A DNA stretch of 64,000 bases. It comes from Streptosporangiaceae bacterium (GTDB taxonomy: Bacteria; Actinomycetota; Actinomycetes; Streptosporangiales; Streptosporangiaceae). Every line of letters begins with the position of its first letter. Positions within the stretch are counted from its first letter, which is position 1. This document shows positions 6,859 through 22,704 of this stretch, piece after piece. The stretch is taken from contig JBEKGC010000014.1 in assembly GCA_050013055.1 (NCBI GenBank), positions 195 to 64,194 of the forward strand. Reading direction: 5' to 3'. Both the position numbers and the translations under genes were made by a program. The notes under the pieces are model-generated. The model had not been told where the DNA came from. It saw only the letters and a program-made list of their open reading frames with translations, and did not search any database.

Positions 6859-7848
6859 ATGGCAGCAACATGGCGGGCGCTTAGGCGGCGGATACTGACA
6901 CCCAATATCAGGGAGACAAAGCTCGCTACGCGTGGTTTTCATGAAAAGAGTCCCGAAGCGCGCGCACGGCTTGAGCGAGTCGGCGAGATGTTCCTTACCG
7001 GTTATGCGCTGGCCGCAGAGGCCCGTTCGGCTGCCGAGGCGGAAGAAGGGCTGGAAAAGCTGCCGTGGGAATTCCGCGGGTTCGCCTACGAGGGCGCCGG
7101 CATGGGATACGCCGTCCGCGACGGGCTGCCGTTCGGCGGTCGCTGGGTCAGGGAGGGCCTCGAGGGACGAGGTAACGAACACATCTATATGGTCTACGTC
7201 GGCGTCGGCTGGGCGATGGCCCGGCTGCCGAGGTTCCGCTGGGCGAAGGCCACAGCTGCGCTGACCGACCCGGTCCTGCGCTGGCTGGCGCTCGACGGCT
7301 ACGGCTTTCACCAAGCCTACTTCCACACGGACAAATACGTCCGCGGCCAGTACCAGGAGCCACGCTTCCCTTGGCCGCCTGAGGGCCCCGCCTGGTACGC
7401 GAACCGCGCCATCGACCAGGGCATCGGCCGGGCCACGTGGTTCGTCTGCGGGACAGACCCGAACCTGGTGGCCGACACCCTTGACGCATTCGACGCCTCA
7501 CGCCGGGCCGACCTGTACAGCGGCGCCGGCTTGGCGGCCACCTATGCCGGCGGAGTGGACGAGGCCGAGCTTCGGGTGTTCCTGGAGCGCGGCAAGCCAT
7601 ACCTACCGCAGATCGCCCAGGCCAGCGCGTTCGCCGCTACCGCACGGGTGCGGGCCGGACTGGTAACCCCGCATACCGAACTAGCGGCCAGGGTGATATG
7701 CGGCACGACTCCGGAAGGCGCCGCCCGCATCTGTGACAAGAACCTGCCGCGGCCATCCGAGGGCTCGGCCGATCAGGTGCCGGCATTCGAACTGTGGCGG
7801 CAGCACGTCGCGGCTAACCTCGCCGCGCTGCAGGCAACGAGCAAATGA
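6859..7848 (+). CDS. unbL: UnbL-type enediyne biosynthesis protein (DUF1702 family), copy 1
   Basis: 329 aa starting at ATG 6859 (MAATWRALRRRILTP), with GGAG 9 nt upstream. Conserved blocks are FRGFAYEGAGMGYAVRDG, VGVGWAMARLPR, WLALDGYGFHQAYFHT and RAIDQGIGRATWF. Size and neighbourhood (after unbV-unbU) match UNBL. The DUF1702 = UnbL equation is from memory. Confidence 0.8.
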   Translation: MAATWRALRRRILTPNIRETKLATRGFHEKSPEARARLERVGEMFLTGYALAAEARSAAEAEEGLEKLPWEFRGFAYEGAGMGYAVRDGLPFGGRWVREGLEGRGNEHIYMVYVGVGWAMARLPRFRWAKATAALTDPVLRWLALDGYGFHQAYFHTDKYVRGQYQEPRFPWPPEGPAWYANRAIDQGIGRATWFVCGTDPNLVADTLDAFDASRRADLYSGAGLAATYAGGVDEAELRVFLERGKPYLPQIAQASAFAATARVRAGLVTPHTELAARVICGTTPEGAARICDKNLPRPSEGSADQVPAFELWRQHVAANLAALQATSK

Positions 7849-7882
7849 GCAAGACGATTAACCTGAGGAGACGTTTATCAGC

Positions 7883-9172
7883 ATGAATAGGACGCTCGCC
7901 GGGATGGTACGGCTACCTGGCCTGCTGGTCCGTGCCTGCCGGGTAGGAACGCTCATTTCGGCCTACGGCCTGGTCTTCGGCGGCACGGCGGTGGCGCGCA
8001 AGCTGCGGCGCACCGGATCCGCCGATGCGGGTGAACGATGGGTGCGGATGCTGAACTCCCTTGGTCCGTCCTACATCAAGATCGGCCAGTTGCTCAGTAC
8101 CCGACGGGACCTGCTGCCGGATGACGTGTGCGCCTCGCTTACCCGGCTGACCGACTCGACGCCGCCACCGGGACGCGGGCAAATCGAGAAGGCGATCCGG
8201 CGCACCTACTCTGATCGTGACTGGCCCTTCGCCGCGTTCGAGTGGACCCCTGTCGCCTGTGGCAGCATCGCGAGCGTGCACCGGGCGGTCACTACCGATG
8301 GCAGAAAGGTCGCGGTCAAGGTGCGGCGACCTGGCATCGACAAGATCATGCGCCAGGATTTCGAGCTCATGTCCATGATGATGACGGCCCTCGGCGCGCT
8401 GCCACCCTTCCGGTCGATGCCGATGAAGGTCATGTTCAGCCAGGTGGGCGGGGCGATCCTGCGACAGCTCGATTTCGTTGCCGAACGCGAATCACTCGTA
8501 GCATTGCACGCGAACCTGGCGGGCTCGGCGGGTATCCGGATCCCGGCGCCGCTCATCGAGCTGTGCACGGACGAGGTCGTGGTGATGGATTTCATCGACG
8601 ACCTCGTCCATTTCGCGCCGGGCGATCTGAGTGCGACCGCGCGCAGCTCGGCGGCCCGCAAGGTCATGGGCCTCATCTACGAGATGCTTTTCGTGGACGG
8701 CCTGGTCCACTGCGACCTGCATCCCGGGAACCTCTACCTCACGCGAGACACGGAGGTCGTCATCCTGGACGCCGGCTTCGTGATCCGGCTGCCGGAGAGC
8801 GTGCGCATGTCCTTTGCCGACTTCTTCATCAACATGGCCATGGGGAACGGCCAGATGTGCGGGCACATCGTCATCGAGAGCGCCGCGCAGATCGCGCCAG
8901 GGGCCGACTGCGCAGGTTTCCGCGATGTACTGGCCGAGCTGATCACGGAGACGACCGGAGCGCGGTCCGGTGATTTCAGCCTGGCTCGCTTCGCCGGACG
9001 TCTATTCGACCTCCAGCGCCGTTACGGGCTCTACCCCGCCCCAGAGTTCGCCTTCCCGCTGTTGTCACTTCTGGTGCTGGAAGGAATGGTCAAGGGTTTC
9101 GACGCCGAGCTGGATTTCCAGGCTGAGGCCGTGCCGATCCTCAAGCGCCGTAACCTCGGACGCCCCGTGTGA
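7883..9172 (+). CDS. ABC1/UbiB/AarF-family atypical protein kinase
   Basis: 429 aa. Motifs seen: LGPSYIKIGQLLSTRRDLLP, VAVKVRRPG and LVHCDLHPGNLYL. GAGGAG lies upstream of the ATG. Confidence 0.85.
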   Translation: MNRTLAGMVRLPGLLVRACRVGTLISAYGLVFGGTAVARKLRRTGSADAGERWVRMLNSLGPSYIKIGQLLSTRRDLLPDDVCASLTRLTDSTPPPGRGQIEKAIRRTYSDRDWPFAAFEWTPVACGSIASVHRAVTTDGRKVAVKVRRPGIDKIMRQDFELMSMMMTALGALPPFRSMPMKVMFSQVGGAILRQLDFVAERESLVALHANLAGSAGIRIPAPLIELCTDEVVVMDFIDDLVHFAPGDLSATARSSAARKVMGLIYEMLFVDGLVHCDLHPGNLYLTRDTEVVILDAGFVIRLPESVRMSFADFFINMAMGNGQMCGHIVIESAAQIAPGADCAGFRDVLAELITETTGARSGDFSLARFAGRLFDLQRRYGLYPAPEFAFPLLSLLVLEGMVKGFDAELDFQAEAVPILKRRNLGRPV

Positions 9173-9218
9173 CCTAACGAGCCATAGCTGACTGTTAACC
9201 AATGGAAGAGGTCGTCTC

Positions 9219-9839
9219 ATGGATGAACAGATCGCGACCGCGGTCCGGGTGCCGCTGATCGGGGAGAGCGAGGCGGACGCACCTCTCGCAGAGCTTTACG
9301 AGCAGGTCAGGAGCGAGACCGGGCTGCCCTTCGTGCCGGACATGTTCCGGCTCCTGTCCACCAAGCCGGAGCTGCTGCAAGCCATCCTGGCCGGGTACAA
9401 CGGCACCTTCAACCACGGGGAGCTTCCCCGGGAGACCAAGGAACTGATCGCGGCCTGGACCTCCCGCCTGAACCAGTGCCCGTACTGCGTGGGCACGCAC
9501 AGTTTCTTCCTTCAGGTCTACGGGGGCAGCGAGGAACTCGCGAACGCGATCGCGAACTCGGCCGATCCCGACGAACTACCCGTGGAGGAGCGCACCCGCG
9601 AACTGCTCCGCCTGGTCACGAAAGTTACCATCAGCCCCTACAAGATCACCGATCGGGACTGGCAGCGGGTACTCGACGCGGGCTACACCACGGGAGAACT
9701 TCTCGAGGGCGTTTTCTGCGCGGCGCTGTTCAATTTCATCTGCCGCCTGGTGGACAGTACGGGACTGGGCACCTCGGTGACGATGAGCCGCGTTTCCCAG
9801 CAGGAAGTGCCGGACGGAGATCATGATGGCGCCGTCTAA
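9219..9839 (+). CDS. Carboxymuconolactone decarboxylase/AhpD-like family protein (peroxidase-related)
   Basis: 206 aa with the AhpD-type CxxC-H motif CPYCVGTHS. The RBS is GGAAGAGG. The 3' end overlaps the following SDR start. Confidence 0.8.
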   Translation: MDEQIATAVRVPLIGESEADAPLAELYEQVRSETGLPFVPDMFRLLSTKPELLQAILAGYNGTFNHGELPRETKELIAAWTSRLNQCPYCVGTHSFFLQVYGGSEELANAIANSADPDELPVEERTRELLRLVTKVTISPYKITDRDWQRVLDAGYTTGELLEGVFCAALFNFICRLVDSTGLGTSVTMSRVSQQEVPDGDHDGAV

Positions 9840-10701
9840 GGCCGTTCTGATCACTGGCGTGTCCTCTGTCACCGGCCTGTCCTCGGGGACCGGTCGCGCG
9901 ACCGCGTTGCGGCTGCACCGGGCCGGCTGGCCGGTCTACGCGACGGGACGAAGCCTGGCCGGACTTGAGGACCTGGCCGCAGAGGGCATCACCACGTTGC
10001 AGGTCGACGTGACCGACGAGGCGTCGATGAGCACGGCCGTGGAGAAGGTCTCCGCCGATCACGGTGCGGTCGGGGTGCTCATCAACAGCGCCGCCTACAG
10101 CCTCAACGGGCTGATCGGGGAAACCCCGGTCGACGAGGTCAGGCGCCAGTTCGAGACCAACCTGTTCGGGCTGGCGAGGATGACCCAGCTTGTCCTGCCG
10201 GGCATGCGCGAGCAAGGCGGCGGGCGGATCGTCATGATGTCCTCGATCTTCGGCCTTTTCGCTACCCCGGGCCGCGGTTACTACCAGGCCACCAAGCACG
10301 CGCTTGAGGCGATCAGCGATTCGCTGCGACTGGAGGTCGAAAGGGACGGGATCAAGGTCATCATCATCGAGCCGTCGCCGATCCTCGGCGGGTTCGTCCC
10401 CACGACCATCGGCGACCTGCGGCTGGCGCCGGGCGCCGGGCACGACAGGTACAGCGAATTCTGGGAAAGCTTCGTGGAATGGCACGGCGCCTACCGGGAG
10501 GCGGAGCATCCCCGCGGCCGCGGCCGTACCTCCATACGCGCCGACAAGGTCGCGCAGGTGGTGGAGAAGTCGATCAGCAGCACCAACCCGCGCATCAGGT
10601 ACAAAATAGGCATTCCGGTGCGCATGCTGCCCCGGCAACGGGCGCTCTTCGGCGAGCGCGCCTGGAGTTTTTTCGTGAAGGGCTTTTTCCCGCAGCCCTG
10701 A
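9826..10701 (+). CDS. Short-chain dehydrogenase/reductase, paralogue of 2486-3328
   Basis: MAPSKAVLITG...VTGLSSGTGRAT (TGxxxGxG preserved after a 6-codon duplication) and YQATKHA (YxxxK). It is alignable over its full length with the SDR at 2486-3328. The start could also be ATG 9823. Confidence 0.85.
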   Translation: MAPSKAVLITGVSSVTGLSSGTGRATALRLHRAGWPVYATGRSLAGLEDLAAEGITTLQVDVTDEASMSTAVEKVSADHGAVGVLINSAAYSLNGLIGETPVDEVRRQFETNLFGLARMTQLVLPGMREQGGGRIVMMSSIFGLFATPGRGYYQATKHALEAISDSLRLEVERDGIKVIIIEPSPILGGFVPTTIGDLRLAPGAGHDRYSEFWESFVEWHGAYREAEHPRGRGRTSIRADKVAQVVEKSISSTNPRIRYKIGIPVRMLPRQRALFGERAWSFFVKGFFPQP

Positions 10702-10792
10702 ACTTCCCGCAGCCCTGAACGGTGCAGTCGATAAACCGGGTCCCAGGCCCGTAACGCGCCGGCTACCGACATGGGTTGTCTGGCGTGCTGCC

Positions 10793-11563
10793 CTAGTGGA
10801 CGGCGCCGTTGTGGACGGCGTGCTTAGCCAGGGCGGGCGGGCCTGGTACCTGCGATTCCAGGCTCGGCACCAGCCCGTCCGGGGCGGTCCGCAGCGGCGG
10901 CGGGGGGATGTGGAACAATTCCACGAACCACGCAAGCAACCCCGGATTGCCCGGCCCGCCATCGGGCGCCCGCAGCCGGACCCCTCCCGTCTCCAGCGCC
11001 TCCCGCGGGCTTATCTCACCTGCCAGCAGAAGCTGCAGCGGCGGACCGGCCTCGATGATCAGATCCGGGTTCAGCAGGTGCCCCTTGCCGATCTGCGCCC
11101 GCCCGTCGCTGATGCACGCGTGCGCGACCATATCGCCGAACTCCACCACGAAGTTCAGGTGGACCGCCCGCGCCATCTCAGCACGGAACGTCACCCGCAG
11201 CGCCGTGATCAGGCCGTCCTCGGTCATGATCTCGTCGCGGCGGAGGTTCCCCAGCGTCCGCAGGCCCCACCGGCACAGCGCCACCACGATCTGCTCTAGG
11301 TCCGCCCCGTACTCGGTCAGCTCGAACACACTCGACTCCATCGACTCCAGCGCCCCGCAGCGCTGTATCACCCCCGCCCGCTCCAGCTCCCCGATCCGCG
11401 TCACCAGCACATCCGCCGGCATCTGCGGGAACCCTCGCCGGAAATCCGCCATGGTCTTCGGCTCTACGAGCAGATCACGGATCAAGAGCAGCGTCCACGG
11501 CTCACCGACAACCTCCATGGCATGCACGAGACCGCAGTGCTGACCGTACGTCTGATGTACCAT
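10793..11563 (-). CDS. HxlR-family winged-helix transcriptional regulator with a C-terminal extension
   Basis: Start trimmed to ATG 11563 (MVHQTYGQHCGLVHAMEVVGEPWTLLLIRDL). The HxlR pattern C-x7-G-x-W-x3-I-x3-L and ...FELTEYG are present. Confidence 0.8.
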   Translation of the reverse strand: MVHQTYGQHCGLVHAMEVVGEPWTLLLIRDLLVEPKTMADFRRGFPQMPADVLVTRIGELERAGVIQRCGALESMESSVFELTEYGADLEQIVVALCRWGLRTLGNLRRDEIMTEDGLITALRVTFRAEMARAVHLNFVVEFGDMVAHACISDGRAQIGKGHLLNPDLIIEAGPPLQLLLAGEISPREALETGGVRLRAPDGGPGNPGLLAWFVELFHIPPPPLRTAPDGLVPSLESQVPGPPALAKHAVHNGAVH

Positions 11564-11660
11564 CTCTACCTCTGGCTCGTTGACTTGACAGGCAAGGCGC
11601 AAAAGGCGGCCATTCATGCAGTTGCCGCACCTTGTTCAGACTGCCTCACTCGGCTCGGGT

Positions 11661-12059
11661 CTAACTAGAGGGAAACTGGATTCCCATCTTCGCGAACAGC
11701 TCACGGGCCACCTTCATGGCGTTGATCGCGCGCGGGACGCCGGCGCAGACGCTTACCAACGTCAGCGCCTCCACCACCTCCTCAGCTTTTGCTCCCACGC
11801 GCAGCGCGCCGCCGATGTGGAATGCCAGCTGCTGTTCACTGCCGCCGAGCACGGCGAGCATGCACACTGTCACAAGCGCGCGGGTGCGCATGTCCAGTCC
11901 GGGGCGGGTAAAGACCGCGCCGAGCCCATACCGCACCTGCGCGCCCAATCCGGGCGCGAATTCCGCCAGGTCCTCCCACGGCGCAATCGCACCGCCGCCC
12001 GACAACACTCCGAAAAGGTCGTCGGCGTTCCGGTCGATCTCATCAGTTACGTGTGACAT
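11661..12059 (-). CDS. Carboxymuconolactone decarboxylase family protein (PcaC-like, single domain)
   Basis: Start trimmed to ATG 12059 (MSHVTDEIDRN), with a strong GGAGGAGAA RBS. It shows the CMD-fold pattern ...RPGLDMRTRALVTVCMLAVLG...LAFHIGGALRVG. Confidence 0.8.
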   Translation of the reverse strand: MSHVTDEIDRNADDLFGVLSGGGAIAPWEDLAEFAPGLGAQVRYGLGAVFTRPGLDMRTRALVTVCMLAVLGGSEQQLAFHIGGALRVGAKAEEVVEALTLVSVCAGVPRAINAMKVARELFAKMGIQFPSS

Positions 12060-12350
12060 TTCTCCTCCATGGTGGCACCCCTTGCTATCACCTGAGCTCA
12101 CAGCGTGATGATGAGCAGGTGGGGCGTGGGTGATGCACCGCCATCCGCGTTCGGCCCGACGGTACCGACCCGGCTCAGGTGAGGGCGTCTCCTGTCGTGC
12201 GCTCGCAGGCCGGGCGACCGGCAGCGCGCAATCCGCGAGTAGGCGATGCACGTATCGGACTCGAGACTTAGCGCAGGCCGCCGCACTGACCGCGTTCGCC
12301 GCGGCGTGGGGTGTCACCTATTGTCGAAGCCATCACTGTGAGGGCCGCGA

Positions 12351-13901
12351 ATGACGACTCAATACGACGTCATTATCGTAGGCGCCGGATCGGCCGGCGC
12401 CGTTCTCGCTGCGCGGTTGAGCGAGGACGCGTCGCGGCGTGTATTGCTCATCGAGTCCGGTCCGGATTACCTGACGTCGGAGGAGACACCGGTAGACATC
12501 AGCAACGGCCGGACGATGTCTTTCCAGGACCATGACTGGGGGTTCCGTGCCGACGTCCGCGACGGGCGCAAGATTCGTTACCCGCGCGGCAAAGTGACTG
12601 GCGGATCGTCCTGTGTCGGCGCGACGGTAGCTCTGCGCGGAGTGCCCGCAGATTACGATGAGTGGGCCAAAGCCGGCAACCCTGGCTGGTCTTTTTCCGA
12701 GGTTCTCCCGTACTTCCAGCGACTGGAGGACGACAAGGACTTCGGCGGCGACGAGTTCCACGGGCGGGGTGGGCCGTTCCCCATCCGCCGCTGGCGTGAG
12801 TCTGAGCTCGCGCCGGGCCAGATCGCGTTTGTCGAGGCATGCCTTGAAGCCGGCTTCCCCGAGGTAAAGGATCACAACCATCCCGAGTCGACTGGCGTCG
12901 GCCCGATCCCGTCGAGCCGGTGGGACCTAAAATCCCGGGCCACCACGGCGAACGCGTACCTCACCCCGGCGGTAAGGCAGCGTCCGAACCTCGAGATCGC
13001 CGCGCAGACGACGATTGACCGGGTCGTATTCGAGGGATCGATGGCGACCGGGGTCATGGCGTCACGCGCGGGTGCCCCCTTTGAGCTCATCGCGGGGCGG
13101 CGGGTGATCCTGGCCGCTGGTGCGGTCGGTTCCCCGATGGTCTTGATGCGCTCCGGCGTCGGACCGGCCGAGGATCTGCGCCGGCTCGGTATCGACTGCC
13201 GCGCGGACCTAGCCGGTGTCGGCGCGAACCTCATAGACCACCAGCGCACGGGCGCATTTCTCGTGCCGCAGCCAGGAGCCTATGACCCGGCTCAGGCATT
13301 CCTGCAGGAGATCCTGCGGACCACCGCGCCCGGCTCGGCCGAGTTCAATGACCTGCAGTACTACATGGTCAACTATTTCGAGCTTGACCACTTCCCCGAG
13401 CTGCAGATGCTCGCCGGGGCAACGGCGATTCTCGGAATCATGCTGGTGTCGCAGCGACCGCGCTCTCGCGGGCGGCTTATGCTGACTTCCGCTGATCCCG
13501 CAGCTTCGCCGCAGATCGAGCTTAATTTCCTGGACTCGGACCGGGAGATGGACATACTCGTCGACGGCGTGCGAACCGCATGGCGCATGGCGAATCACCC
13601 CCGGATCCGCAGCCTCGGCCAGGGATTCGTCGTCTTGCGCGAGTCGACGATAGATAACGACGACATGGTGCGGCAGTACATCAAGATGAGCCTTGATAGC
13701 GCCTACCACCCGATGGGGACCGTCCGCATGGGACCCGCCGACGATCCTCGATCTGTGGTCGGAGAGCGGTGCGCTGTGCATGGTCTGGAGTCGTTGTACG
13801 TCTGCGACGCCTCGATCATGCCCAACACGGTGGTTGCCAACACAAACCTGACGTCGATCATGATCGGCGAGCGGATGGCGGACTGGCTGCGCGTTACCTG
13901 A
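12351..13901 (+). CDS. GMC-family FAD oxidoreductase (choline dehydrogenase-like)
   Basis: 516 aa. The N-terminal FAD motif is YDVIIVGAGSAGAVLAARLSED, and the C-terminal GMC signature region is AYHPMGTVRMG. Confidence 0.9.
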   Translation: MTTQYDVIIVGAGSAGAVLAARLSEDASRRVLLIESGPDYLTSEETPVDISNGRTMSFQDHDWGFRADVRDGRKIRYPRGKVTGGSSCVGATVALRGVPADYDEWAKAGNPGWSFSEVLPYFQRLEDDKDFGGDEFHGRGGPFPIRRWRESELAPGQIAFVEACLEAGFPEVKDHNHPESTGVGPIPSSRWDLKSRATTANAYLTPAVRQRPNLEIAAQTTIDRVVFEGSMATGVMASRAGAPFELIAGRRVILAAGAVGSPMVLMRSGVGPAEDLRRLGIDCRADLAGVGANLIDHQRTGAFLVPQPGAYDPAQAFLQEILRTTAPGSAEFNDLQYYMVNYFELDHFPELQMLAGATAILGIMLVSQRPRSRGRLMLTSADPAASPQIELNFLDSDREMDILVDGVRTAWRMANHPRIRSLGQGFVVLRESTIDNDDMVRQYIKMSLDSAYHPMGTVRMGPADDPRSVVGERCAVHGLESLYVCDASIMPNTVVANTNLTSIMIGERMADWLRVT

Positions 13902-13974
13902 CCGGCGGGCCAGAAAGGAGCGCGCCGCTCCCAGGCCGCGAAGGCGGCCATGCGTACCGCGCCGCCAGGCGTAG

Positions 13975-14011
13975 CCAAAGAGACCGGGGTTGAAAGCCCC
14001 GGTCTCTTTGG
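13975..14011 (+). terminator. Stem-loop terminator candidate after the GMC oxidoreductase
   Basis: A 15-bp perfect stem pairs CCAAAGAGACCGGGG (13975-13989) with CCCCGGTCTCTTTGG (13997-14011) around the loop TTGAAAG. It lies 74 nt after the stop. There is no clear U-tract, which is common in high-GC actinomycetes. Confidence 0.5.
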
Positions 14012-14304
14012 TCTCTTGGCACAGGACAGGAAGATCAGGCCGGCGCGCCGGTGGATGCTAGTGCCGCGGAGGTAACGTTCGCCCCGCTTCCAGCCGCCGC
14101 CGGCCCCGGGGCCGGCCCTATTACTACGACGGTCCGTTGGTGTTGCGGGTTCGCTGGTCAGGCCCCGGAGGCGGGTCCGTTGTGGTCGTGCTGGTGGCGC
14201 GGTGGCGGCTGGGGGTGGTGATGCGAGGTGTGTGCCGTGCCTCGTCCGGCCTCAGCGTCGTGCGGGCCGGGCCGCCGGTTTCGCGTGGAAGATCGGGCTC
14301 CTGC

Positions 14305-14340
14305 GGATAGTTCGGTACCCGATAGGGTACCGAACTATCC
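14305..14340. repeat. 36-bp perfect palindrome (16-bp arms, 4-nt centre) in a gene-free interval
   Basis: The sequence is GGATAGTTCGGTACCC-GATA-GGGTACCGAACTATCC. It lies inside the roughly 740-bp non-coding stretch 13902-14639. Coordinates were cross-checked against ORF-track frames. Confidence 0.6.
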
Positions 14341-14639
14341 AGGTAAGCCGAATATTCCACGATCTTTTTCGACCATTGTGACGGGTGGGTTGCGGGTGCG
14401 GGGAGAGGCGGGGTTGGCGGTGACGGCGGCTGGGATGCGGTGGTTCGGGCCCTCAGAGTGATTGCTGCGGCGCTAGCTGAACCTGGGCCCGGCCGACGAA
14501 TCGTTAGCAGGACAACCCGAAGAGGGCGTCAGCCGATTCGGAGGTCTGGCCGGACCCAGGCTCCCGTTCCGCTACCTGAACCGCGCAAACCGGGCCGGAA
14601 AGCACGGCACACATCGACAGGCACGAAGATCTGGGTGCG

Positions 14640-15452
14640 TCAGGCCGCCTGCGATGACTGCGCGTCCGCGAACTGACCGGGTTGGCGGCCTTCGCCGGCC
14701 GGCCCGCGGTACGCCTGGGCGATGTTCAGCCAGCGATCCGCCTCGGCGCCCACGGCGGTCAGGTCGAGGTCATCGCGATGCCGACGACGGGTGATCAGCA
14801 GGCAGAAATCCCACGCGGACCCGCGGACCAGCTGCGTGGCGTCCGCAGGGCCGAACTCCCAGCGGGCACCAGACGGGGCGGTCAATTCGAGCCGGAACTG
14901 CTCCTCCGGCGGCTTGATCCCGTGCGCCATGTAGCCGAAAGCGCGGGTATGCAGGCCGAATGCGACCAGGTGCTTGATCCGGTCGGTCCGCTCGCGGCGT
15001 ACCCCCAGGGCATCCGCGACGTCCTGACCGTGGCCGAAGGTCTCCATGTACCCCGCGGCCGCGAGCACCGACGGCGGCAGCGGGTTCACCAGCCACGGAA
15101 CCATCTGCCCGGCTGGGACCGCGAGGAGGGCTCCGGTCGCAGCCGACCGTTCGGAGCGCCAGCGGGCCATGACACCTTCCTGCCCATCGGCCATGTATTC
15201 CGCGAGGACAGTGTCCACAGACCCTTGGAAGTCGATCCGGGCGGGAGCCACTTCGGCTTCGAAGGCTGCGCCGTCTGACGCCGCCAGACGGGCGAGGTGA
15301 GCGATGAAGGCCAGGTGCGCGATCTGGTGCCCGATCGTCCAGCCGGGGGCTGGAGTCGGGGTTGCCCACGCCGCCACGTCCAGCTCCGCAACCAGGCCGT
15401 CGAGAGCGTTATCCTCGGCGGTAAGGTAGGAACATACTTCCTGCAACTCCAT
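14640..15452 (-). CDS. DinB/MDMPI-like metal-binding protein (TIGR03084-like, mycothiol maleylpyruvate isomerase N-terminal domain family)
   Basis: 270 aa. The N-terminus ...WATPTPAPGWTIGHQIAHLAFIAHLA is typical of the DinB-fold MDMPI_N domain. Confidence 0.7.
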   Translation of the reverse strand: MELQEVCSYLTAEDNALDGLVAELDVAAWATPTPAPGWTIGHQIAHLAFIAHLARLAASDGAAFEAEVAPARIDFQGSVDTVLAEYMADGQEGVMARWRSERSAATGALLAVPAGQMVPWLVNPLPPSVLAAAGYMETFGHGQDVADALGVRRERTDRIKHLVAFGLHTRAFGYMAHGIKPPEEQFRLELTAPSGARWEFGPADATQLVRGSAWDFCLLITRRRHRDDLDLTAVGAEADRWLNIAQAYRGPAGEGRQPGQFADAQSSQAA

Positions 15453-15790
15453 TACGGTGGGTCCTTTCTACCTGGGCTTGGCCGGATGCTTTCCTGTTTG
15501 CTTCGCTGCATCGCGGCATAGATCGCGAAAGGGGTATGTGCGTAATTTCGCCGATCGGACACCCCAACTCATGAGTATCCAGCGATATGGGGACAACGGG
15601 CTTCTCTGGACGTGCTGCCCTCACCCGGCACCCCGGCGCAGCTTGCAGACCGCCCCGATCCTCTGGAGGGGCCGAACTCCACAGCGGAGTTCGGCCCCTT
15701 CAAACGCAATCGGGAAGAGGCGGCGTGGCACGCCCGCGGCCGATCATCCAAGAGACCGGAGTTTTTCCTATCGAAAACAGAGGGGGATGT

Positions 15791-16777
15791 ATGGCCACGC
15801 TGCTCGGCTCGGTCCGCAGGCTCGTGTTCACGCCGTCGCTGACCGAGGTTACATTCGCCAAGCGCGGCTTCCCCAGTAAGCCAACTGAGGCCACCGACCA
15901 TTTGGAGCGAGTACCGCAGTCAGTGATCTGCGGGTTCGAATGGGGCATCGACTCACGCTCCCAGTGGGAAGTGGAGCGCCGCCTGGGCATGATAGAACCT
16001 GAACTCCGTAGTTTTGCTTATGAAGGCGCGACGATGGCATTTACGGTACGGGACGCGTTCGGCGGTCACCGTACCAGGGAGCTGCTCCTAGGCCCGGGAG
16101 AGAAGCACATATTCGTCGCCTACATTGGCATCGGCTTCGCCATGGCCCGGCTGCCTCGCCAGTTGTGGAAGAAGGTCGTGCCTGATCTGAGCGGAACTCC
16201 CTTTTATCCGGCGATTAGCTGGCTGGCGGTTGACGGCTACGCTTTCGATCGCGCGTACTTCGACACCCGCCGCTGGGTGGACAAGCAGATTCAGCCGCGA
16301 CCCTACCCGTGGGCTGGATACCCCGCTTATTTCCCGCGGGCTGTCGACCAGGGCATTGGCCGCGCGCTGTGGTTCATCCACGGCGGCAGAGCGGCAGACG
16401 TCGCCGCGGCCGTGCGGCGGTTCGCCGAGCCGAGGCGGGCCGACCTGTGGAGCGGCGTCGGACTGGCCGCGACGTTCGCCGGCGGCTGCGACCCGCAAGA
16501 GCTCTCTGAGCTGTACGAAACCGCGGATTCGTACCGGCCCGAGGTCGGCTTGGGGGCGGTGTTCGCCGTCAAGGCGCGGCACTATGCAGGCTTCGTCCCT
16601 GAGCATACGGTCGAAGCGGCCAGCGCCTTTGGCGGCCTGACCATCGAGGAGGCGGTTTCGATCGCCGACCGGGGCACAGCCGTCGACGCCGTCGAGGGAC
16701 CGGAGCCTGCGTATGAGATCTGGCGGCGCAGGATCCGCCTGGAGCTCGATCCTGCGGCCAGGTCACTTTCGACGTAG
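15791..16777 (+). CDS. UnbL-like DUF1702 family protein, copy 2 (divergent)
   Basis: Start trimmed to ATG 15791 (MATLLGSVRRLVFTP), with a GAGGGGGA RBS. It shares family blocks with copy 1: SFAYEGATMAFTVRDA, IGIGFAMARLPR, WLAVDGYAFDRAYFDT and RAVDQGIGRALWF. Confidence 0.8.
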   Translation: MATLLGSVRRLVFTPSLTEVTFAKRGFPSKPTEATDHLERVPQSVICGFEWGIDSRSQWEVERRLGMIEPELRSFAYEGATMAFTVRDAFGGHRTRELLLGPGEKHIFVAYIGIGFAMARLPRQLWKKVVPDLSGTPFYPAISWLAVDGYAFDRAYFDTRRWVDKQIQPRPYPWAGYPAYFPRAVDQGIGRALWFIHGGRAADVAAAVRRFAEPRRADLWSGVGLAATFAGGCDPQELSELYETADSYRPEVGLGAVFAVKARHYAGFVPEHTVEAASAFGGLTIEEAVSIADRGTAVDAVEGPEPAYEIWRRRIRLELDPAARSLST

Positions 16778-16963
16778 GCGGCCGGACGGGCCGCGACAAC
16801 GACACGTTATGAGCGTTGCGCACAACCGGTCGCGAGCGCGGGCCTTCTGGGCCTGCGCGAGCGATCGGTGCTGGCAGCGCGGGCAGTAGGTTCTTTGCAT
16901 AACGTGACTATTGCATAGAACACTATGCCGCGAAGTCAAGCGGCAGGCCGAGAGGAGAAAACG

Positions 16964-17947
16964 TTGGCCGTTTCATGGCGGGCAATCAGAGGACGTATTC
17001 TTACGCCCAGCAAATCAGCCACCAAATTGTCCAAGCGCGGCTTTTACGAGAAGAGCCCAGCCGCGCGTGATCTGCTTGAGAACGTCGGCGAGACATTCAT
17101 GAAGGGGTATAGTTTCGCCGTCGGGTCGCGTACCGTTGCCGAGGCGGAAGAACACCTTGAAGAGGTGCCGTGGGAATTCCGCGGATTCGCCTACGAGGGC
17201 GCTGGAATGGGGTTCGCGGTCCGCGATGGACTGCCGTTCGGAGGCCATTGGGTCGAGCGTTGCCTGCAGGGGCGGGGCGACGAGCACATCTACATGGTCT
17301 ACGTCGGCGTCGGCTGGGCGATGGCGCGGCTGCCGAGGTTGCGCTGGGCGAAGGCCACCGTCGGGCTGACCGACCCGATCCTGCGTTGGCTCGCGCTCGA
17401 CGGCTATGGCTTCCATCAAGCCTATTTCCACACCGAAAAGTACGTCCGCCGCCAGTACCAGGAGCTGGACTTCCCGTGGCCGGCCGAGGATCCGGCCCAG
17501 TACGCGAACCGCGCTATCGACCAGGGCATCGGGCGAGCCACGTGGTTCGTCTGCGGGTCAGACCCGAACCGGGTGGCGGACGCGTTCGACGCGTTCCCGC
17601 TGGAACGCCGGGCCGACCTCTACTGCGGCGCCGGCCTAGCCGCCACCTACGCCGGCGCCGTGGACGAGGCCGAGCTGCGCGTGTTCTTGGACCGCGGCAA
17701 GGCGTATCTCCCGCAGATCGCCCAGGCTAGCGCCTTCGCCGCGACGGCCCGGGTGCGGGCGGGGCTGGTGACCCCGCATACCGAACTGGCGGCCAGGCTG
17801 CTATGCGGCGTCACTCCGGAAGACGCCGCCCGCATCTGTGAGGAATCTCTCCCGCAGCCGTCGGAAGGCGGAGCGGTGCCGGGCTTCGAACTCTGGCGGC
17901 AGCGCATCAGCAGCACCCTCATGTCGCTGCAAGGGACGAATAAATAG
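16964..17947 (+). CDS. UnbL-like DUF1702 family protein, copy 3 (close paralogue of copy 1)
   Basis: The likely start is TTG 16964, with GAGAGGAG 6 nt upstream; ATG 16925 is the alternative. It shares long identical runs with copy 1: HIYMVYVGVGWAMARLPR, LRWLALDGYGFHQAYFHT, YANRAIDQGIGRATWFVCG and YLPQIAQASAFAATARVRAGLVTPHTELAAR. Confidence 0.8.
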   Translation: MAVSWRAIRGRILTPSKSATKLSKRGFYEKSPAARDLLENVGETFMKGYSFAVGSRTVAEAEEHLEEVPWEFRGFAYEGAGMGFAVRDGLPFGGHWVERCLQGRGDEHIYMVYVGVGWAMARLPRLRWAKATVGLTDPILRWLALDGYGFHQAYFHTEKYVRRQYQELDFPWPAEDPAQYANRAIDQGIGRATWFVCGSDPNRVADAFDAFPLERRADLYCGAGLAATYAGAVDEAELRVFLDRGKAYLPQIAQASAFAATARVRAGLVTPHTELAARLLCGVTPEDAARICEESLPQPSEGGAVPGFELWRQRISSTLMSLQGTNK

Positions 17948-18039
17948 CACGACGGTGGGCCGGCCCGGCACAGTCACCGGCGCCTGTGGCCGGGTCCGCC
18001 GCGGACGAAGACGGTCCCGCTCCTGCGGCGCATGCTGTG

Positions 18040-18345
18040 CAACAGGCCCGACTGCCGCGCTCCCGCTGGCGAAAAGGTGCTGCCTGATCTAACCGGTCAT
18101 CCGTACCATCACCCACGATGAGCTGGCTCGCAGTCGACGGCTTTACCTATTTCCATTCGCGTCGCTGGATCGATGGCAAGATCCAAAACCCTATCCATGG
18201 AGGGATGCCGGACTATTTCCCGGTGCCGCGGGCAGATCGCACCGAGGTCGCGGCCGGCGCGCTCGGGCCGGTATCGCCCTATGAGCTGCGGCGAAGCGGA
18301 ATCCGCGGGGCCGTCGCTGCGTCAACGGAACGTCTCCTCAACTGA
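18040..18345 (+). pseudogene. Decayed DUF1702/unbL copy (5'-truncated, frameshifted, internally deleted)
   Basis: ORF 18118-18345 reads MSWLAVDGFTYFHSRRWIDGKIQNP...YFPVPRADR...GPVSPYELRRSGIRGAV. This matches the copy-2 blocks ISWLAVDGYAFDRAYFDTRRWVDKQIQP...YFPRAVDQG and the C-terminal GPEPAYEIWRRRIRLEL, but about 130 codons between them are missing. Just upstream, another frame reads EKVLPDLTGHPYHHPR, matching copy 2 KKVVPDLSGTPFYPAI. There is no N-terminal third. Confidence 0.55.
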
Positions 18346-18484
18346 AACTGGCTCTGTCCGGAGGAAATTGCCTGCGGGTCTATGAGATGATGGCGGACGA
18401 ATGACGCCGAGCTGCGGAACTGCTTTCTAATTCCATAGCCGCCCCGCCCGATTACAAACCCGCTCTAGGAAGCCTCGGGACATC

Positions 18485-19204
18485 ATGACTGATCGACGAC
18501 TCACCTCCGCTGCCGCGGACCTGACGCCGCCCGACCGCCCCGCCACGATGACGACAGGTGGCATGACCGCGGCTGCGGTCGTGCTGACAGCGACGATCGG
18601 GCTGGCGGCCGCATCCTGGGTCATCGCGAGCTGGCAGATGAACGGGATGGACATGGGCGTCGCGACCCAGCTCGGCTCGTTCGCGTTCTTCGTCGCCGTG
18701 TGGCCGCCAATGATGGCGGCGATGATGTTGCCAGGCGCGGCCCCGGCCGTGTTGAGGCGGGCCCGAGCCAGCGATGGTATGCGCGCCGTACCGCTGTTTG
18801 TCGTGTCGTACCTCGCCGTCTGGACGCTTGTGGGCGTCCTGGTGTACGTGGCGTACCGCCCGCACGAGTCCCTGGCCGCCGGCATCATGGTGATCGCGGC
18901 CGGCGCCTACGAGTTCACCCCGCTCAAGCGGCACTTCCGGCGGCGCTGCCGCGAGAACCTCCGCACTGGTTTCGGGTTCGGGCTGTGCTGCCTGGGATCG
19001 AACATCGGACTGATGCTGCTGCCCGTGGCGCTGGGCGTCATGAGCATCGTGTGGATGGCCGTGGTCTGCGCGGTCGTCCTGGCCCAGAGGCTGCTGCCTG
19101 CGAACGCCGCCGTCGACGTGTCGCTGGCGGTTGCGATCGTCGGGCTCGGTATCTGGATCGTCCTGGCGCCCTCATCTGTTCCAGGACTCATGCCCTCGAT
19201 GTGA
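18485..19204 (+). CDS. DUF2182-family predicted metal-binding membrane protein
   Basis: 239 aa with multiple TM helices. The characteristic block is FFVAVWPPMMAAMMLPGAAP...AGAYEFTPLKRHFRRRCR. The start may be an internal Met. Confidence 0.7.
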   Translation: MTDRRLTSAAADLTPPDRPATMTTGGMTAAAVVLTATIGLAAASWVIASWQMNGMDMGVATQLGSFAFFVAVWPPMMAAMMLPGAAPAVLRRARASDGMRAVPLFVVSYLAVWTLVGVLVYVAYRPHESLAAGIMVIAAGAYEFTPLKRHFRRRCRENLRTGFGFGLCCLGSNIGLMLLPVALGVMSIVWMAVVCAVVLAQRLLPANAAVDVSLAVAIVGLGIWIVLAPSSVPGLMPSM

Positions 19205-19363
19205 GACGACACGCGGCAACGTGTGATCCCCGGGGCGGATCCGGCCGGTAGGTGGCGCCCGGGGTTTCTGGCGCGGCATGCTCGGAGTAGGCGAGGAGGC
19301 GGCCAATTCGAGATCATGATCTCGTACTCCGATGTATCAAGCGAATTCCGAATGGAGAGGACG

Positions 19364-19537
19364 TTGGTTAATGCCTCCGTGGCGCTTAGGCACCGGCTGC
19401 CGACATCACATATGTCGGCGACGAGGCTGCCGGTAGTCGGTTTCCACGAAAAGAGTCCCGAATCATTTAATCTGCCGGGATCAATCGGCGAGACAGTATT
19501 GTGCCAGATCGTTTCCGGAGAGGACGCGAAGCTATGA
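19364..19537 (+). pseudogene. 5' remnant of a DUF1702/unbL gene, now a 57-codon ORF whose stop overlaps the P450 start
   Basis: From TTG 19364, preceded by GGAGAGGA, the ORF reads (M)VNASVALRHRLPTSHMSATRLPVVGFHEKSPESFNLPGSIGETVL. This aligns with the copy-1 N-terminus WRALRRRILTPNIRETKLATRGFHEKSPEARARLERVGEMFL. Homology then ends. The stop TGA 19535-19537 overlaps the P450 ATG 19534 as ATGA. Confidence 0.5.
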
Positions 19538-20907: not shown

Positions 20908-20956
20908 CGGTCATATGACCGTGGCCGCCACCACGTCCCTTTGTGGTGGCGGCCAC
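20907..20956 (+). terminator. Two consecutive hairpins directly after the P450 stop
   Basis: The first is a 16-bp perfect palindrome, ACGGTCATATGACCGT (20907-20922). It overlaps a 14-bp stem pairing GTGGCCGCCACCAC (20921-20934) with GTGGTGGCGGCCAC (20943-20956) around the loop GTCCCTTT. Confidence 0.5.
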
Positions 20957-21537
20957 CAGATTGTCCAGCTAAACGAATGGAATTGCCGGGCTCATTCTGG
21001 TCTCTTTCCATTGGTCTCTTTCCCCTCGCGTTTCACAGGTTTACCGGTGCCTGCGGTCTGCTCGGCTTGCCTTGGCCGACCGGGACGGGATGGCCGCTCC
21101 TTCTGCCTCAGCCGCCTACGGCGGGAGGGCCGGGTGCGGGCCGGTCCATCCTGGAGCCCGAGGTCCCGCCGGAGGCATGATTTGGGCACGATGTCAGACC
21201 CGGAAGCCTACGTGCCCATCTCCCATGGGCTCACCTCGGAGCTGAGCAGGGAAGATGTGCTCGATGCGGCCCGCCCGCTCCCGCCGAACGAAGACGCGGT
21301 CATTGAGAACCTGAGCGACGAACGTGAAGGATCTCGTCCTGATCACCAAGCTCGATCTGTAGATCAAGGCGTGGGCTCGCCCTCTCCGTGGAGGCAGATG
21401 CGCTGCGGCTGGCTCGTTCTCACGCTAACTCATAGAGCGAACGTAGCTTCGATTCTTAGCCCTCGGGCCTGGCCTGCAGGGGTGATGGATTTAGCCGAAG
21501 GCCCGATATCTCGCTGGCGCACTATATGGCGGAAATT

Positions 21538-22608: not shown

Positions 22609-22704
22609 CGTCAACTCCCTGTGTCGCGACCGGCTACTCGAAACGACGTGAGGCCGGCCGCGGCGGTAAGCCAATACCGCCGCGGCCGGCCACTCCGTAC
22701 CGGG

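What the first reader, a model, noticed from the sequence alone, without database searches (positions are those of the whole stretch)
6859..19537. Expansion and decay of the UnbL (DUF1702) family: three intact copies plus two remnants
Enediyne clusters normally carry one unbL. This window has five traces. Copy 1 (6859-7848) is in the canonical position after unbV-unbU. A tandem pair follows 8 kb downstream: divergent copy 2 (15791-16777) and copy 3 (16964-17947), the latter very close to copy 1. A 5'-truncated, frameshifted, internally deleted copy lies directly after copy 3 (about 18040-18345). A 5' remnant that keeps the RBS, TTG start and first 45 or so codons lies in front of the P450 gene (19364-19537). 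The order (C-terminal fragment, DUF2182 gene, N-terminal fragment) shows that the two remnants are not halves of one interrupted gene. They are relics of separate copies, implying a former array of at least four tandem unbL genes. UnbL has no assigned biochemical function, so a lineage that amplifies and diversifies it is a useful handle on that function.
Basis: seen in the sequence. Interest (0 to 1): 0.7.

Follow-up and report, generated by a model that had tools for sequence, protein, structure and literature searches.

The report
Enediyne E2/E3 genes plus recombination scars
The five DUF1702 (UnbL) traces are real, but they are the already known E2/E3 gene pair of nine-membered enediyne clusters, one extra E3, and the decayed leftovers of a second E2-E3-P450 module that was spliced in by recombination, so this is not an amplified array of one gene.

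Summary
Observation confirmed. Three intact DUF1702 genes lie at the stated coordinates (Pfam E about 1e-130 each), and both remnants are significantly similar to the family.

Interpretation only partly supported. Copy 2 is an ortholog of enediyne protein E2. Copies 1 and 3 are E3. A copy-2-type gene lies upstream of a copy-1/3-type gene in 58 of 80 related genomes, nearly always directly. The literature already treats E2 as an E3 homolog that marks 9-membered clusters. "One unbL per cluster" is therefore a wrong premise.

The remnants are an E2-type then an E3-type pseudogene, in the conserved E2-E3 order. The E3 remnant sits exactly where E3 sits in relatives, with its stop overlapping the P450 start (ATGA).

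The 100 bp after copy 3 (17948-18047) is the 5' end of a P450 gene, fused directly to E2 codon ~119. The E2 remnant was therefore probably born truncated at a recombination junction.

Trees and dS values indicate that the two joined E2-E3-P450 modules were already diverged. A PpoB2 gene later inserted between the relics. Copies 1 and 3 are old paralogs (dS 0.70, dN/dS 0.22).

This is ordinary cluster evolution and modestly interesting.

The parts
3598..5568 (+). E4 (UnbV): FG-GAP / UnbV_ASPIC protein
   Evidence: Pfam FG-GAP_3 1e-21 and UnbV_ASPIC 1.4e-11. It is 71% identical to the Catenulispora E4.
5463..6614 (+). E5 (UnbU), with no Pfam family
   Evidence: A homolog was found in 53 of 80 GTDB loci, next to E4 in the arrangements seen. 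No Pfam hit.
6859..7848 (+). c1: intact E3-type DUF1702 gene of the 'Y' block (E4-E5-E3-ABC1 kinase-CMD-SDR-...-GMC)
   Evidence: Pfam E 5.8e-132. Closest relative is the E3 of L093 (78-80%), which is followed by P450-ABC1-CMD-SDR-GMC. dN/dS against c3 is 0.22. Its stop lies in an ATGA, and the next ~9 nt resemble the L093 P450 start.
15791..16777 (+). c2: intact E2-type DUF1702 gene
   Evidence: Pfam E 1.9e-136. It is 56-68% identical to the gene upstream of E3 in 58 of 80 GTDB loci and 81% identical to the E2 of L092. JGI names its orthologs 'enediyne biosynthesis protein E2'. dN/dS against the L092 E2 is 0.18.
16964..17947 (+). c3: intact E3-type DUF1702 gene with TTG start, partner of c2. 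Its sequence is mosaic.
   Evidence: Pfam E 9.2e-130. It groups with the L092 E3 in 91% of bootstraps. The 5' 180 nt are 0.81-0.82 identical to L092 and 0.61-0.65 to c1. The 3' third is 0.84-0.88 identical to L093 and 0.66-0.79 to L092.
17948..18047 (+). Pseudogene fragment: the first ~34 codons of a P450 (E7-type) gene that once followed c3. Its start codon is destroyed.
   Evidence: blastn homology with L092 and L093 runs about 100 bp past the c3 stop. The local alignment score against the L093 P450 5' end is 84, against 18.8 +/- 2.9 for shuffles (0 of 1000 reach it). Against L092 the score is 42 (0 of 1000). Against the window's own P450 5' end it is 18 (294 of 1000). The peptide PGPPRTKTVPLLRRMLCNR aligns to residues 12-34 of 65 P450s.
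18046..18345 (+). psiE2: E2-type pseudogene starting at E2 codon ~119. It has a stop, at least four frameshifts and an internal deletion of about residues 185-295, and keeps its C-terminal end and stop. NCBI calls a 75-aa hypothetical ORF at 18118-18345.
   Evidence: The E2 HMM scores 33.3 bits against 13.3 bits for the E3 HMM. The reconstructed peptide is 57% identical to c2 and 67% identical to the E2 of L073. Frame analysis is and the DNA alignment. The 75-aa ORF is MGD0602505.1.
18438..19211 (+). Inserted segment carrying an intact PpoB2/DUF2182 gene (18485-19204) and about 47 nt of the 3' end of the ArsR-type gene that normally precedes it
   Evidence: Pfam PpoB2 7.5e-25. The segment is 80% identical in DNA to L172 and L173 over 18567-19211, and 72% identical to L173 over 18438-18508. 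The usual context is AHSA1-ArsR-PpoB2-DUF899. No PpoB2 homolog was found in any of the 80 GTDB enediyne loci.
19364..19537 (+). psiE3: E3-type relic forming an open 57-codon ORF. It keeps the ribosome-binding site, the TTG start and about 46 N-terminal codons. Its TGA overlaps the P450 ATG (ATGA).
   Evidence: The E3 HMM scores 16.4 bits (E 2e-7), and the E2 HMM gives no homologous, N-terminal match; its only hit at this site is a non-significant, non-collinear one in another frame (-3.9 bits, E 0.31). About 33 nt upstream of the start are ~73% identical to the region upstream of c3. GC3 has fallen to 0.62. Homology of the last 11 codons to the E3 C-terminus is not supported.
19534..20907 (+). 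The only intact E7-type cytochrome P450 of the window, belonging to the same module as psiE2 and psiE3
   Evidence: Pfam p450 9.1e-80. The L092 and L093 P450s group together in 99% of bootstraps, excluding this P450. dS to them is 0.97-1.03, against 0.66-0.69 for c2 and c3.
41438..47290 (+). Enediyne polyketide synthase (PKSE), followed by the E10 thioesterase (about 47287-47763) and an E6-type flavin reductase (to 48346)
   Evidence: Pfam KS, AT, KR and DH domains. 4HBT_2 2.1e-8 and Flavin_Reduct 4.1e-41. The PKSE is 85-86% identical to Catenulispora PKSE fragments.

Best explanation
The window is an enediyne cluster of the E2-containing (predicted 9-membered) type, from an uncultured Streptosporangiaceae MAG.

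Its DUF1702 content has three layers:
1. The ordinary, ancient E2-E3 pair (c2-c3).
2. A second E3 (c1). It belongs to a separate E4-E5-E3-ABC1 kinase-CMD-SDR-GMC block. Relatives of that block carry their own P450 between E3 and the kinase.
3. The scars of a second E2-E3-P450 module.

The region 15.8-20.9 kb reads: E2x, E3x, P450x codons 1-34, then E2z from codon ~119 to its end (decayed), then an inserted PpoB2 gene, then the E3z N-terminus (decayed), then P450z (intact).

Proposed history. The fusion of a P450 5' end to the middle of an E2 gene is an illegitimate recombination junction. It joined two homologous but already diverged E2-E3-P450 modules out of register. Only one intact E7-type P450 (z) remains. 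The E2 of module z was dead on arrival. The E3 of module z was redundant with two other E3 genes and was lost by an internal deletion. A gene-sized PpoB2 segment landed in the E2z-E3z spacer. All intact copies remain under purifying selection.

Shown: family and subfamily assignment, the junction anatomy, the phylogenetic discordance, and the insertion bounds.
Inferred: the order of events, and which module was resident and which was incoming.
For: Subfamily assignment:
- 58 of 80 GTDB loci carry a c2-type gene upstream of a c1/c3-type gene, nearly always directly adjacent. The usual order is E2-E3-E4-E5-PKSE or E2-E3-P450.
- JGI names c2 orthologs 'enediyne biosynthesis protein E2'.
- PMC5181780 describes E2, E3 and R3 as one family, with E2 marking 9-membered clusters.

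Relic typing:
- psiE2 scores 33.3 bits with the E2 HMM and 13.3 bits with the E3 HMM.
- psiE3 scores 16.4 bits with the E3 HMM and has no homologous match to the E2 HMM.

Position: in 39 of 56 relatives the E3 stop overlaps the P450 start as (A/G)TGA. psiE3 keeps that configuration.

Junction: 17948-18047 is a P450 5' fragment. Its alignment score to L093 is 84, reached by 0 of 1000 shuffles. It abuts E2 codon ~119 at 18046.

The two modules were already diverged:
- The fragment is 72% and 66% identical to the L093 and L092 P450 5' ends, but only 47% identical to the window's own P450 5' end. That last value is not significant.
- The L092 and L093 P450s group together in 99% of bootstraps, excluding the window P450.
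- c2 and the L092 E2 group together in 97% of bootstraps, excluding psiE2.
- dS is 0.97-1.03 for the P450 against 0.66-0.69 for c2 and c3.
- The window P450 is no further from the outgroups L088 and L099 than the L092 and L093 P450s are, so it is not simply evolving faster.

PpoB2 insertion bounds and usual context.

Selection: dN/dS is 0.18-0.29 for the comparisons computed between intact genes (c1/c3, the window genes and their L092/L093 counterparts). GC3 has fallen in the relics to 0.62-0.71, against 0.78-0.87 in intact genes.
Against: - The relics are short (about 64 and 46 alignable residues), so their tree placement is weak. psiE2 groups with L073/L074 in only 36% of bootstraps. Long-branch effects on a pseudogene could push it out of the c2 clade.
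- c3 is itself mosaic. Gene conversion among paralogs has clearly occurred and could distort the trees used here.
- The anatomy E2-E3-P450(1-34)|E2(119-end)-E3-P450 is also exactly what a single in situ tandem duplication would produce.
- No donor or sister genome with an intact second module, or with PpoB2 between E2 and E3, was found.
- The closest relatives (L092, L093) are short metagenome contigs of unknown organism.
- The 'E3' label for c1 and c3 rests on profile, synteny and the published cassette order. I did not obtain a source annotation or a comparison with SgcE3.
Confidence: 0.68

Rival explanations
1. In situ tandem duplication. A single segment running from E2 codon ~119 to P450 codon ~34 duplicated head to tail within one cluster. 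The redundant second copies then decayed. The present divergence reflects age, relaxed selection and gene conversion.
For: The architecture is the textbook product of one tandem duplication with breakpoints inside E2 and inside the P450. Gene conversion between E3 paralogs is visible in c3, so sequence relationships may be scrambled.
Against: - The non-duplicated part of the P450 (codon 35 to the end) should be orthologous to the L092 P450 and about as close as c2 and c3 are. Instead it lies outside the L092+L093 clade (99% bootstrap). Its dS is about 1.0 against 0.66-0.69, with no sign of a faster rate.
- The dead P450 fragment is closer to L092 and L093 than the functional 5' end is.
- psiE2 lies outside the c2+L092 clade (97% bootstrap).
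Confidence: 0.2
2. A lineage-specific amplification produced an array of four or more tandem unbL genes. The array then diversified (copy 2) and decayed (the remnants).
For: Four DUF1702 traces lie on one strand within 3.8 kb.
Against: - Copy 2 and copy 3 each have closer relatives in other genera (56-68% and 59-65% identity) than they are to each other (42%). The split between them is therefore ancient and shared, not local.
- The traces alternate E2, E3, E2, E3.
- A P450 fragment sits between copy 3 and the E2 relic, so the unit was E2-E3-P450 and not unbL.
- Because of that junction, the E2 relic was most likely never a complete gene at this site.
Confidence: 0.04
3. The relic ORFs are not dead. 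The 57-codon psiE3 ORF may be kept open because its translation delivers ribosomes to the overlapping P450 start. The 75-aa psiE2 ORF may encode a small protein.
For: - psiE3 keeps a ribosome-binding site, a TTG start, a single frame over 57 codons, and an ATGA stop/start overlap like 39 of 56 relatives.
- psiE2, probably of about the same age, has at least four frameshifts in about 300 nt.
Against: - With the psiE2 indel rate, the chance of no frameshift in 174 nt is about 0.1. The chance of no stop in 57 neutral codons is of the same order (my estimates). Neither is significant.
- The P450 has its own GGAGAGGA ribosome-binding site 8 nt upstream of its ATG.
- GC3 of the ORF has fallen to 0.62.
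- The tail shows no detectable E3 homology.
- The 75-aa ORF spans internal compensating frameshifts.
- No diverged relative was available to test conservation. Every other copy found is at least 99.9% identical.
Confidence: 0.15

Closest known systems
E2/E3 (UnbL, DUF1702) paralog pair of 9-membered enediyne clusters (for example SgcE2/SgcE3 of C-1027), as described in the genome neighbourhood network of Rudolf et al. 2016 and Yan et al. 2016 (PMC5181780)
   Same: c2 and c3 form a head-to-tail E2-E3 pair, as in 58 of 80 related loci. Both are full-length DUF1702 proteins about 42% identical to each other. They are accompanied by E4, E5, PKSE, E10, E6, an E7-type P450, and E8- and E9-like genes in the same window.
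   Different: The cassette is scattered. E4-E5-E3(c1) lies at 3.6-7.8 kb, E2-E3 at 15.8-17.9 kb and PKSE at 41.4 kb. There is a second intact E3.
E2-less enediyne-type loci with E3-P450-ABC1 kinase-CMD-SDR-GMC (for example L093, L021, L057, L065)
   Same: The block c1-ABC1-CMD-SDR-...-GMC (6859-13901) is collinear with L093 and 76-82% identical to it.
   Different: In those loci a P450 sits between E3 and the kinase, overlapping the E3 stop. In the window it is absent. Only the ATGA and about 9 similar bases remain.
Other clusters with extra DUF1702 copies: L088/L089 (extra intact E2-type gene, divergently oriented), Actinosynnema L049/L067 (two E3 genes), and L097 (an E2 fragment upstream of E3)
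   Same: They show that duplication, and occasionally decay, of E2/E3 genes recurs in enediyne clusters.
   Different: None of them has the E2-E3-P450 fragment|E2 fragment junction, the PpoB2 insertion, or an E3 relic in front of the P450. Only one other candidate relic was found in 165 loci.

Membership tests
DUF1702 / UnbL (Pfam PF08012) | Full-length match to the family profile above the gathering score | tested here: met
   c1, c2 and c3 score 439.9, 454.6 and 432.6 bits (cut-off 25) and cover profile positions 2-318 of 319.
DUF1702 / UnbL (Pfam PF08012) | The two remnants are significantly similar to family members | tested here: met
   tblastn gives E 2.6e-9 and about 1e-4. The subfamily HMMs give E 1.5e-12 and 2e-7. 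The Pfam general model misses the single-frame relic ORFs at E<=0.01.
E2 subfamily (marker of 9-membered enediyne clusters) | Groups with E2 rather than E3 sequences | tested here: met
   c2 is 56-81% identical to the genes upstream of E3 and about 42% identical to E3 genes. Its orthologs are annotated 'enediyne biosynthesis protein E2' by JGI. psiE2 scores 33.3 bits (E2 HMM) against 13.3 bits (E3 HMM).
E2 subfamily (marker of 9-membered enediyne clusters) | Encoded directly upstream of E3 in the same orientation | tested here: met
   c2 ends at 16777 and c3 starts at 16964. The same arrangement occurs in 58 of 80 GTDB loci, nearly always directly adjacent. psiE2 precedes psiE3.
E2 subfamily (marker of 9-membered enediyne clusters) | The cluster makes a 9-membered enediyne core | not testable with these tools
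   No product is known for this MAG. The E2 rule comes from PMC5181780.
E3 subfamily (core enediyne cassette E3/E4/E5/E/E10) | Groups with the gene directly upstream of E4 (UnbV) in canonical cassettes | tested here: met
   c1 and c3 are 55-65% identical to the gene that precedes E4-E5-PKSE in many of the loci examined. The clade c1+c3+L092+L093 has 98% bootstrap support.
E3 subfamily (core enediyne cassette E3/E4/E5/E/E10) | Contiguous with E4, E5, PKSE and E10 | tested here: inconclusive
   All five gene types are in the window. The order is E4-E5-E3(c1), and PKSE-E10 lies about 34 kb away. The E4-E5-E3 order also occurs in L124, L137 and L145.
E3 subfamily (core enediyne cassette E3/E4/E5/E/E10) | Direct similarity to characterised SgcE3, CalU14 or TnmE3 | not tested
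Tandem gene amplification array | Neighbouring copies are each other's closest relatives | tested here: not met
   c2 and c3 are 42% identical, and each has closer relatives in other genera. psiE2 is not closest to c2. The P450 fragment is not similar to the neighbouring P450.

The most novel reading that the evidence does not exclude
The E3 relic may have been reduced to a 57-codon leader ORF that is kept open because it still drives translationally coupled initiation of the only remaining E7-type P450. More broadly, E3 and this P450 may be an obligate co-expressed pair: their stop and start overlap in 39 of 56 clusters. That would point to the long-sought function of UnbL/E3 as a partner of the P450 step in enediyne core maturation.
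Probability: 0.15. Interest if true: 0.55.

Novelty: new member of a known kind. Interest (0 to 1): 0.3.

Why it matters
For genome mining, the practical point is that two DUF1702 genes in tandem are the normal E2-E3 signature of predicted 9-membered enediyne clusters. They should not be scored as an expansion.

What is particular here is a readable recombination scar. A P450 5' end is fused to the middle of an E2 gene, followed by an inserted PpoB2 gene and an E3 stub. It shows that enediyne core-tailoring genes move and are exchanged as an E2-E3-P450 module. After such a merger the redundant parts are lost reciprocally: two E3 genes and one P450 survive out of three E3-P450 pairs.

It is also a small natural experiment. 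Both surviving E3 genes have lost the P450 they were coupled to, yet remain under purifying selection. The surviving P450 is coupled only to a dead E3. Physical coupling of a given E3 to a given P450 is therefore probably dispensable.

The widespread E3-P450 overlap is still a useful, testable hint about the unknown function of UnbL/E3.

Tried and rejected
- NCBIfam has no model for any of these proteins.
- The PDB sequence search with c3 found nothing at E<=1.
- An AlphaFold model of c2 is confident (pLDDT 90.3, pTM 0.90, all-alpha). Foldseek against the PDB gave no meaningful neighbour (best E 0.49, TM <= 0.27). No functional inference from fold was possible.
- I suspected that the last 11 codons of the psiE3 ORF (QIVSGEDAKL) were the E3 C-terminus (QRIVSG...). 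That would have meant an in-frame internal deletion. A shuffle test against 163 E3 3' ends did not support it (observed maximum 20, shuffle mean 20.1).
- I looked for flanking direct or inverted repeats that would mark a mobile element around PpoB2. I found only short matches at chance level.
- I looked for further P450 relics in the window and found none beyond 17948-18047.
- I hoped that close relatives would date the events. The GTDB species set has nothing closer than 65% to c1. The nearest metagenome relatives (L092, L093) are short contigs. The other copies of the relics are from the same population (at least 99.96% identity).
- A PpoB2 homolog on a 17,157-bp contig, the same length as a contig carrying an E2 homolog, turned out to lie in an unrelated context.
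- The key paper of Rudolf et al. 2016 (PMC4753101) and Gui et al. 2024 (PMC11658463) are not held.

Full report
**Source and setting**

The window is high-GC DNA (about 66%). Its proteins match an NCBI MAG labelled "Streptosporangiaceae bacterium". MGD0602495.1 is c1, MGD0602503.1 is c2, MGD0602504.1 is c3, and MGD0602505.1 is a 75-aa hypothetical protein. The contig is 65,767 bp. The same DNA occurs at 99.96-99.98% identity in six JGI and ENA metagenome contigs, so the arrangement is not an assembly artefact.

The window carries a full set of enediyne genes:
- E4/UnbV (3598-5568) and E5/UnbU (5463-6614).
- A PKSE with KS-AT-KR-DH domains (41438-47290), a 4HBT thioesterase and a flavin reductase.
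- A P450 (19534-20907).
- A CMD-like gene, a GMC-type oxidoreductase and a DUF5987 gene (21.5-25 kb).

**Checking the observation**

The three intact genes are full-length DUF1702 proteins (Pfam E 5.8e-132, 1.9e-136, 9.2e-130). c1 and c3 are 76% identical. c2 is about 42% identical to both.

A tblastn search of the whole window with the three copies finds exactly two further significant places:
- 18046-18222, best with c2: E 2.6e-9, residues 119-182, plus a collinear C-terminal piece.
- 19382-19531, best with c1 and c3: E about 1e-4, residues 7-56.

Reading the frames shows that the first relic has a stop, at least four frameshifts, and an internal deletion of roughly residues 185-295. It keeps its C-terminal end. 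The second relic is an open 57-codon ORF running from TTG 19364 to TGA 19537.

**What the copies are**

A scan of one genome per GTDB species returned 80 loci. In 58 of them a c2-type gene (56-68% identical to c2) lies upstream of a c1/c3-type gene (59-65%), nearly always directly adjacent. The usual order is E2-E3-E4-E5-PKSE, or E2-E3-P450. The c2/c3 split is therefore ancient and shared across many actinomycete genera.

JGI annotates c2 orthologs as "enediyne biosynthesis protein E2". Yan et al. 2016 (PMC5181780) state that all enediyne clusters share the cassette E3/E4/E5/E/E10. They also state that E2, E3 and R3 form one network family that separates at a stricter threshold. E2 is exclusive to predicted 9-membered clusters and R3 to 10-membered ones.

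So c2 is E2, and c1 and c3 are E3. The premise of "one unbL per cluster" is wrong for this class.

**Typing the relics**

I built profiles from 58 E2 and 82 E3 sequences. Relic A scores 33.3 bits with the E2 profile and 13.3 bits with the E3 profile. Relic B scores 16.4 bits with the E3 profile. With the E2 profile it gives only a non-significant match in another frame (-3.9 bits, E 0.31) to a non-collinear part of the model. The relics are thus E2-type then E3-type, in the conserved order.

In 39 of 56 relatives where E3 is followed by the P450, the E3 stop overlaps the P450 start as ATGA or GTGA. The E3 relic ends in exactly this way on the window's P450. About 33 nt upstream of its TTG resemble the region upstream of c3. 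The relic therefore occupies the ancestral E3 slot in front of the P450.

DNA alignment of the two closest relatives runs about 100 bp beyond the c3 stop. L092 carries E2-E3-P450, and its E2 is 81% identical to c2. L093 carries E3-P450-ABC1-CMD-SDR-GMC. Both alignments resume only at codon 38 of the window's P450.

The stretch 17948-18047 is the 5' end of a P450 gene:
- Its local alignment score against the L093 P450 5' end is 84. Shuffles give 18.8 +/- 2.9, and 0 of 1000 reach 84.
- Against L092 the score is 42 (0 of 1000).
- Its translation aligns to residues 12-34 of 65 P450s.
- Its start codon is destroyed.

At 18046 the fragment abuts E2 codon ~119. The local anatomy is therefore: E2, E3, P450 codons 1-34, then E2 from codon 119 to its end, then PpoB2, then the E3 stub, then P450. 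The E2 relic was most likely truncated from the moment the junction formed.

**One duplication, or two diverged modules?**

This anatomy is what a single tandem duplication would give. The sequences, however, indicate that the two halves were already diverged:
- The dead P450 fragment is 72% and 66% identical to the L093 and L092 P450 5' ends. It is only 47% identical to the window's functional P450 5' end, and that value is not significant (294 of 1000 shuffles).
- The L092 and L093 P450s group together in 99% of bootstraps, excluding the window's P450. c2 and the L092 E2 group together in 97%, excluding psiE2.
- dS between the window and L092 is 0.66 for E2 and 0.69 for E3. It is 1.03 for the P450 (0.97 against L093). 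The L092 and L093 P450s differ from each other by only 0.54.
- The window P450 is no further from the outgroups L088 and L099 than L092 and L093 are, so it is not simply faster-evolving.

I therefore favour an out-of-register, illegitimate join between two homologous but diverged E2-E3-P450 modules. An old in situ duplication remains a rival at about 0.2. The relics are short, and c3 is visibly mosaic: its 5' end is L092-like and its 3' third is L093- and c1-like. Gene conversion has therefore acted here and could distort the trees.

**The extra E3**

c1 and c3 differ by dS 0.70 and dN 0.15 (dN/dS 0.22). They form a 98% clade with the E3 genes of L092 and L093. Within that clade c3 pairs with L092 (91%) and c1 with L093 (73%).

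c1's neighbours (ABC1 kinase, CMD, SDR, GMC) are 76-82% identical to L093 and collinear with it. L093, however, has a P450 between E3 and the kinase. In the window only the ATGA and about 9 similar bases remain after c1.

The lineage thus once had three E3-P450 junctions and now keeps two E3 genes and one P450. In the pairwise comparisons computed for the intact genes (c1 against c3, and the window genes against their L092 and L093 counterparts), dN/dS is 0.18-0.29. The comparisons of c2 with c1 and c3 are saturated (dS above 1.5).

**The PpoB2 gene**

The DUF2182/PpoB2 gene (18485-19204) is intact, with host-like GC3 of 0.87. No PpoB2 homolog was found in any of the 80 GTDB enediyne loci. It has very many homologs at 70-78% identity. 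Their usual context is AHSA1-ArsR-PpoB2-DUF899.

DNA homology to those loci covers 18567-19211, plus 18438-18508, which includes the tail of the ArsR-type gene. A gene-sized segment therefore landed in the E2z-E3z spacer. It left 92 nt and 152 nt of spacer on its two sides.

**How unusual is this?**

Extra DUF1702 copies occur elsewhere:
- L088/L089 have an extra intact E2-type gene.
- Two Actinosynnema loci have two E3 genes.

Relics are rare. A scan of 165 other loci found a single E2 fragment, in L097.

**Function**

The PDB holds no sequence relative. A confident all-alpha AlphaFold model of c2 (pLDDT 90.3) has no structural neighbour in the PDB. The 2023 PNAS paper still calls E3-E5 genes of unknown function (PMC9992847). 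The only functional hint from this work is the widespread E3-P450 stop/start overlap.

**Verdict**

The finding is a new member of a known kind: an E2-type enediyne cluster with an extra E3 and a legible recombination scar. It is not a lineage that amplifies UnbL. Interest is modest.

Noticed in passing
window 17948-18047: The 100 bp after the c3 stop are the decayed first ~34 codons of a P450 gene. They are closer to the P450s of L092 and L093 than to the window's own P450, and they are fused directly to E2 codon ~119.
   Followed up: yes
window 7845-7882, compared with L093 921-2372: c1 ends in ATGA, and the next ~9 bases resemble the start of the P450 that follows the orthologous E3 in L093. 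That P450 is otherwise cleanly absent, and the ABC1-kinase gene starts 35 bp after c1.
   Followed up: partly
window 18438-19211 and 27589-28386 (-): The PpoB2/DUF2182 gene is a solo, gene-sized insert. Elsewhere it sits in a conserved AHSA1-ArsR-PpoB2-DUF899 operon (L172, L173). A DUF899 gene 49-52% identical to the L172/L173 partners lies 8 kb away on the other strand.
   Followed up: partly
window 16964-17947: c3 is mosaic. Its first ~180 nt are 0.81-0.82 identical to the L092 E3 but only 0.61-0.65 identical to c1. Its last third is 0.84-0.88 identical to L093 and 0.82-0.86 to c1, but 0.66-0.79 to L092. This suggests gene conversion between E3 paralogs.
   Followed up: partly
protein P0246 (Logan assembly, 1497-bp contig): This 329-aa protein has the N-terminal ~125 residues of c3 joined to the rest of c1. 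It is either an assembly chimera across the 32-nt identical stretch or a real recombinant allele.
   Followed up: no
56 E3-P450 junctions in loci L007-L165: In 39 of 56 related clusters the E3 stop codon overlaps the P450 start codon (ATGA or GTGA). This includes clusters that lack E2. It is a conserved translational-coupling arrangement that hints at a functional link between E3 and the P450.
   Followed up: partly
L088 8803-9783 (-) and L089 664-1644 (-): Another enediyne cluster (ENA ERZ1758400) has an additional intact E2-type gene (58% identical to c2). It is divergently oriented next to E2-E3-P450.
   Followed up: partly
L097 1106-1276: This is the only other candidate DUF1702 relic among 165 loci. 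It is an E2 fragment (residues 86-141, 64% identical) just upstream of E3 in a metagenome contig.
   Followed up: no
window 6859-13901 compared with 15791-24570: The window appears to hold two parallel tailoring sets. One is E3-(P450 lost)-ABC1-CMD-SDR-GMC, as in E2-less loci. The other is E2-E3-P450-CMD-like-GMC-like-DUF5987, as in E2-containing loci. Only one PKSE is present. The cluster may be a merger of two cluster types.
   Followed up: partly
window 19354-19363 and 19517-19526: The same 10-mer, GGAGAGGACG, forms the ribosome-binding site of the psiE3 ORF and that of the P450. It may be chance, because many 10-nt repeats occur in this region.
   Followed up: no
window 20915-21841 (+): This 308-codon ORF directly after the P450 has no Pfam match and overlaps the 3' end of the convergent CMD-like gene (21538-22674). 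It is probably not a gene. The 630 bp between the P450 and that gene remain unexplained.
   Followed up: no
window 49740-64000: From about 49.7 kb the genes are primary-metabolism types: biotin carboxylase, phosphoketolase, phosphotransacetylase, a GH65 phosphorylase and serine hydroxymethyltransferase. The cluster probably ends near 49 kb.
   Followed up: no
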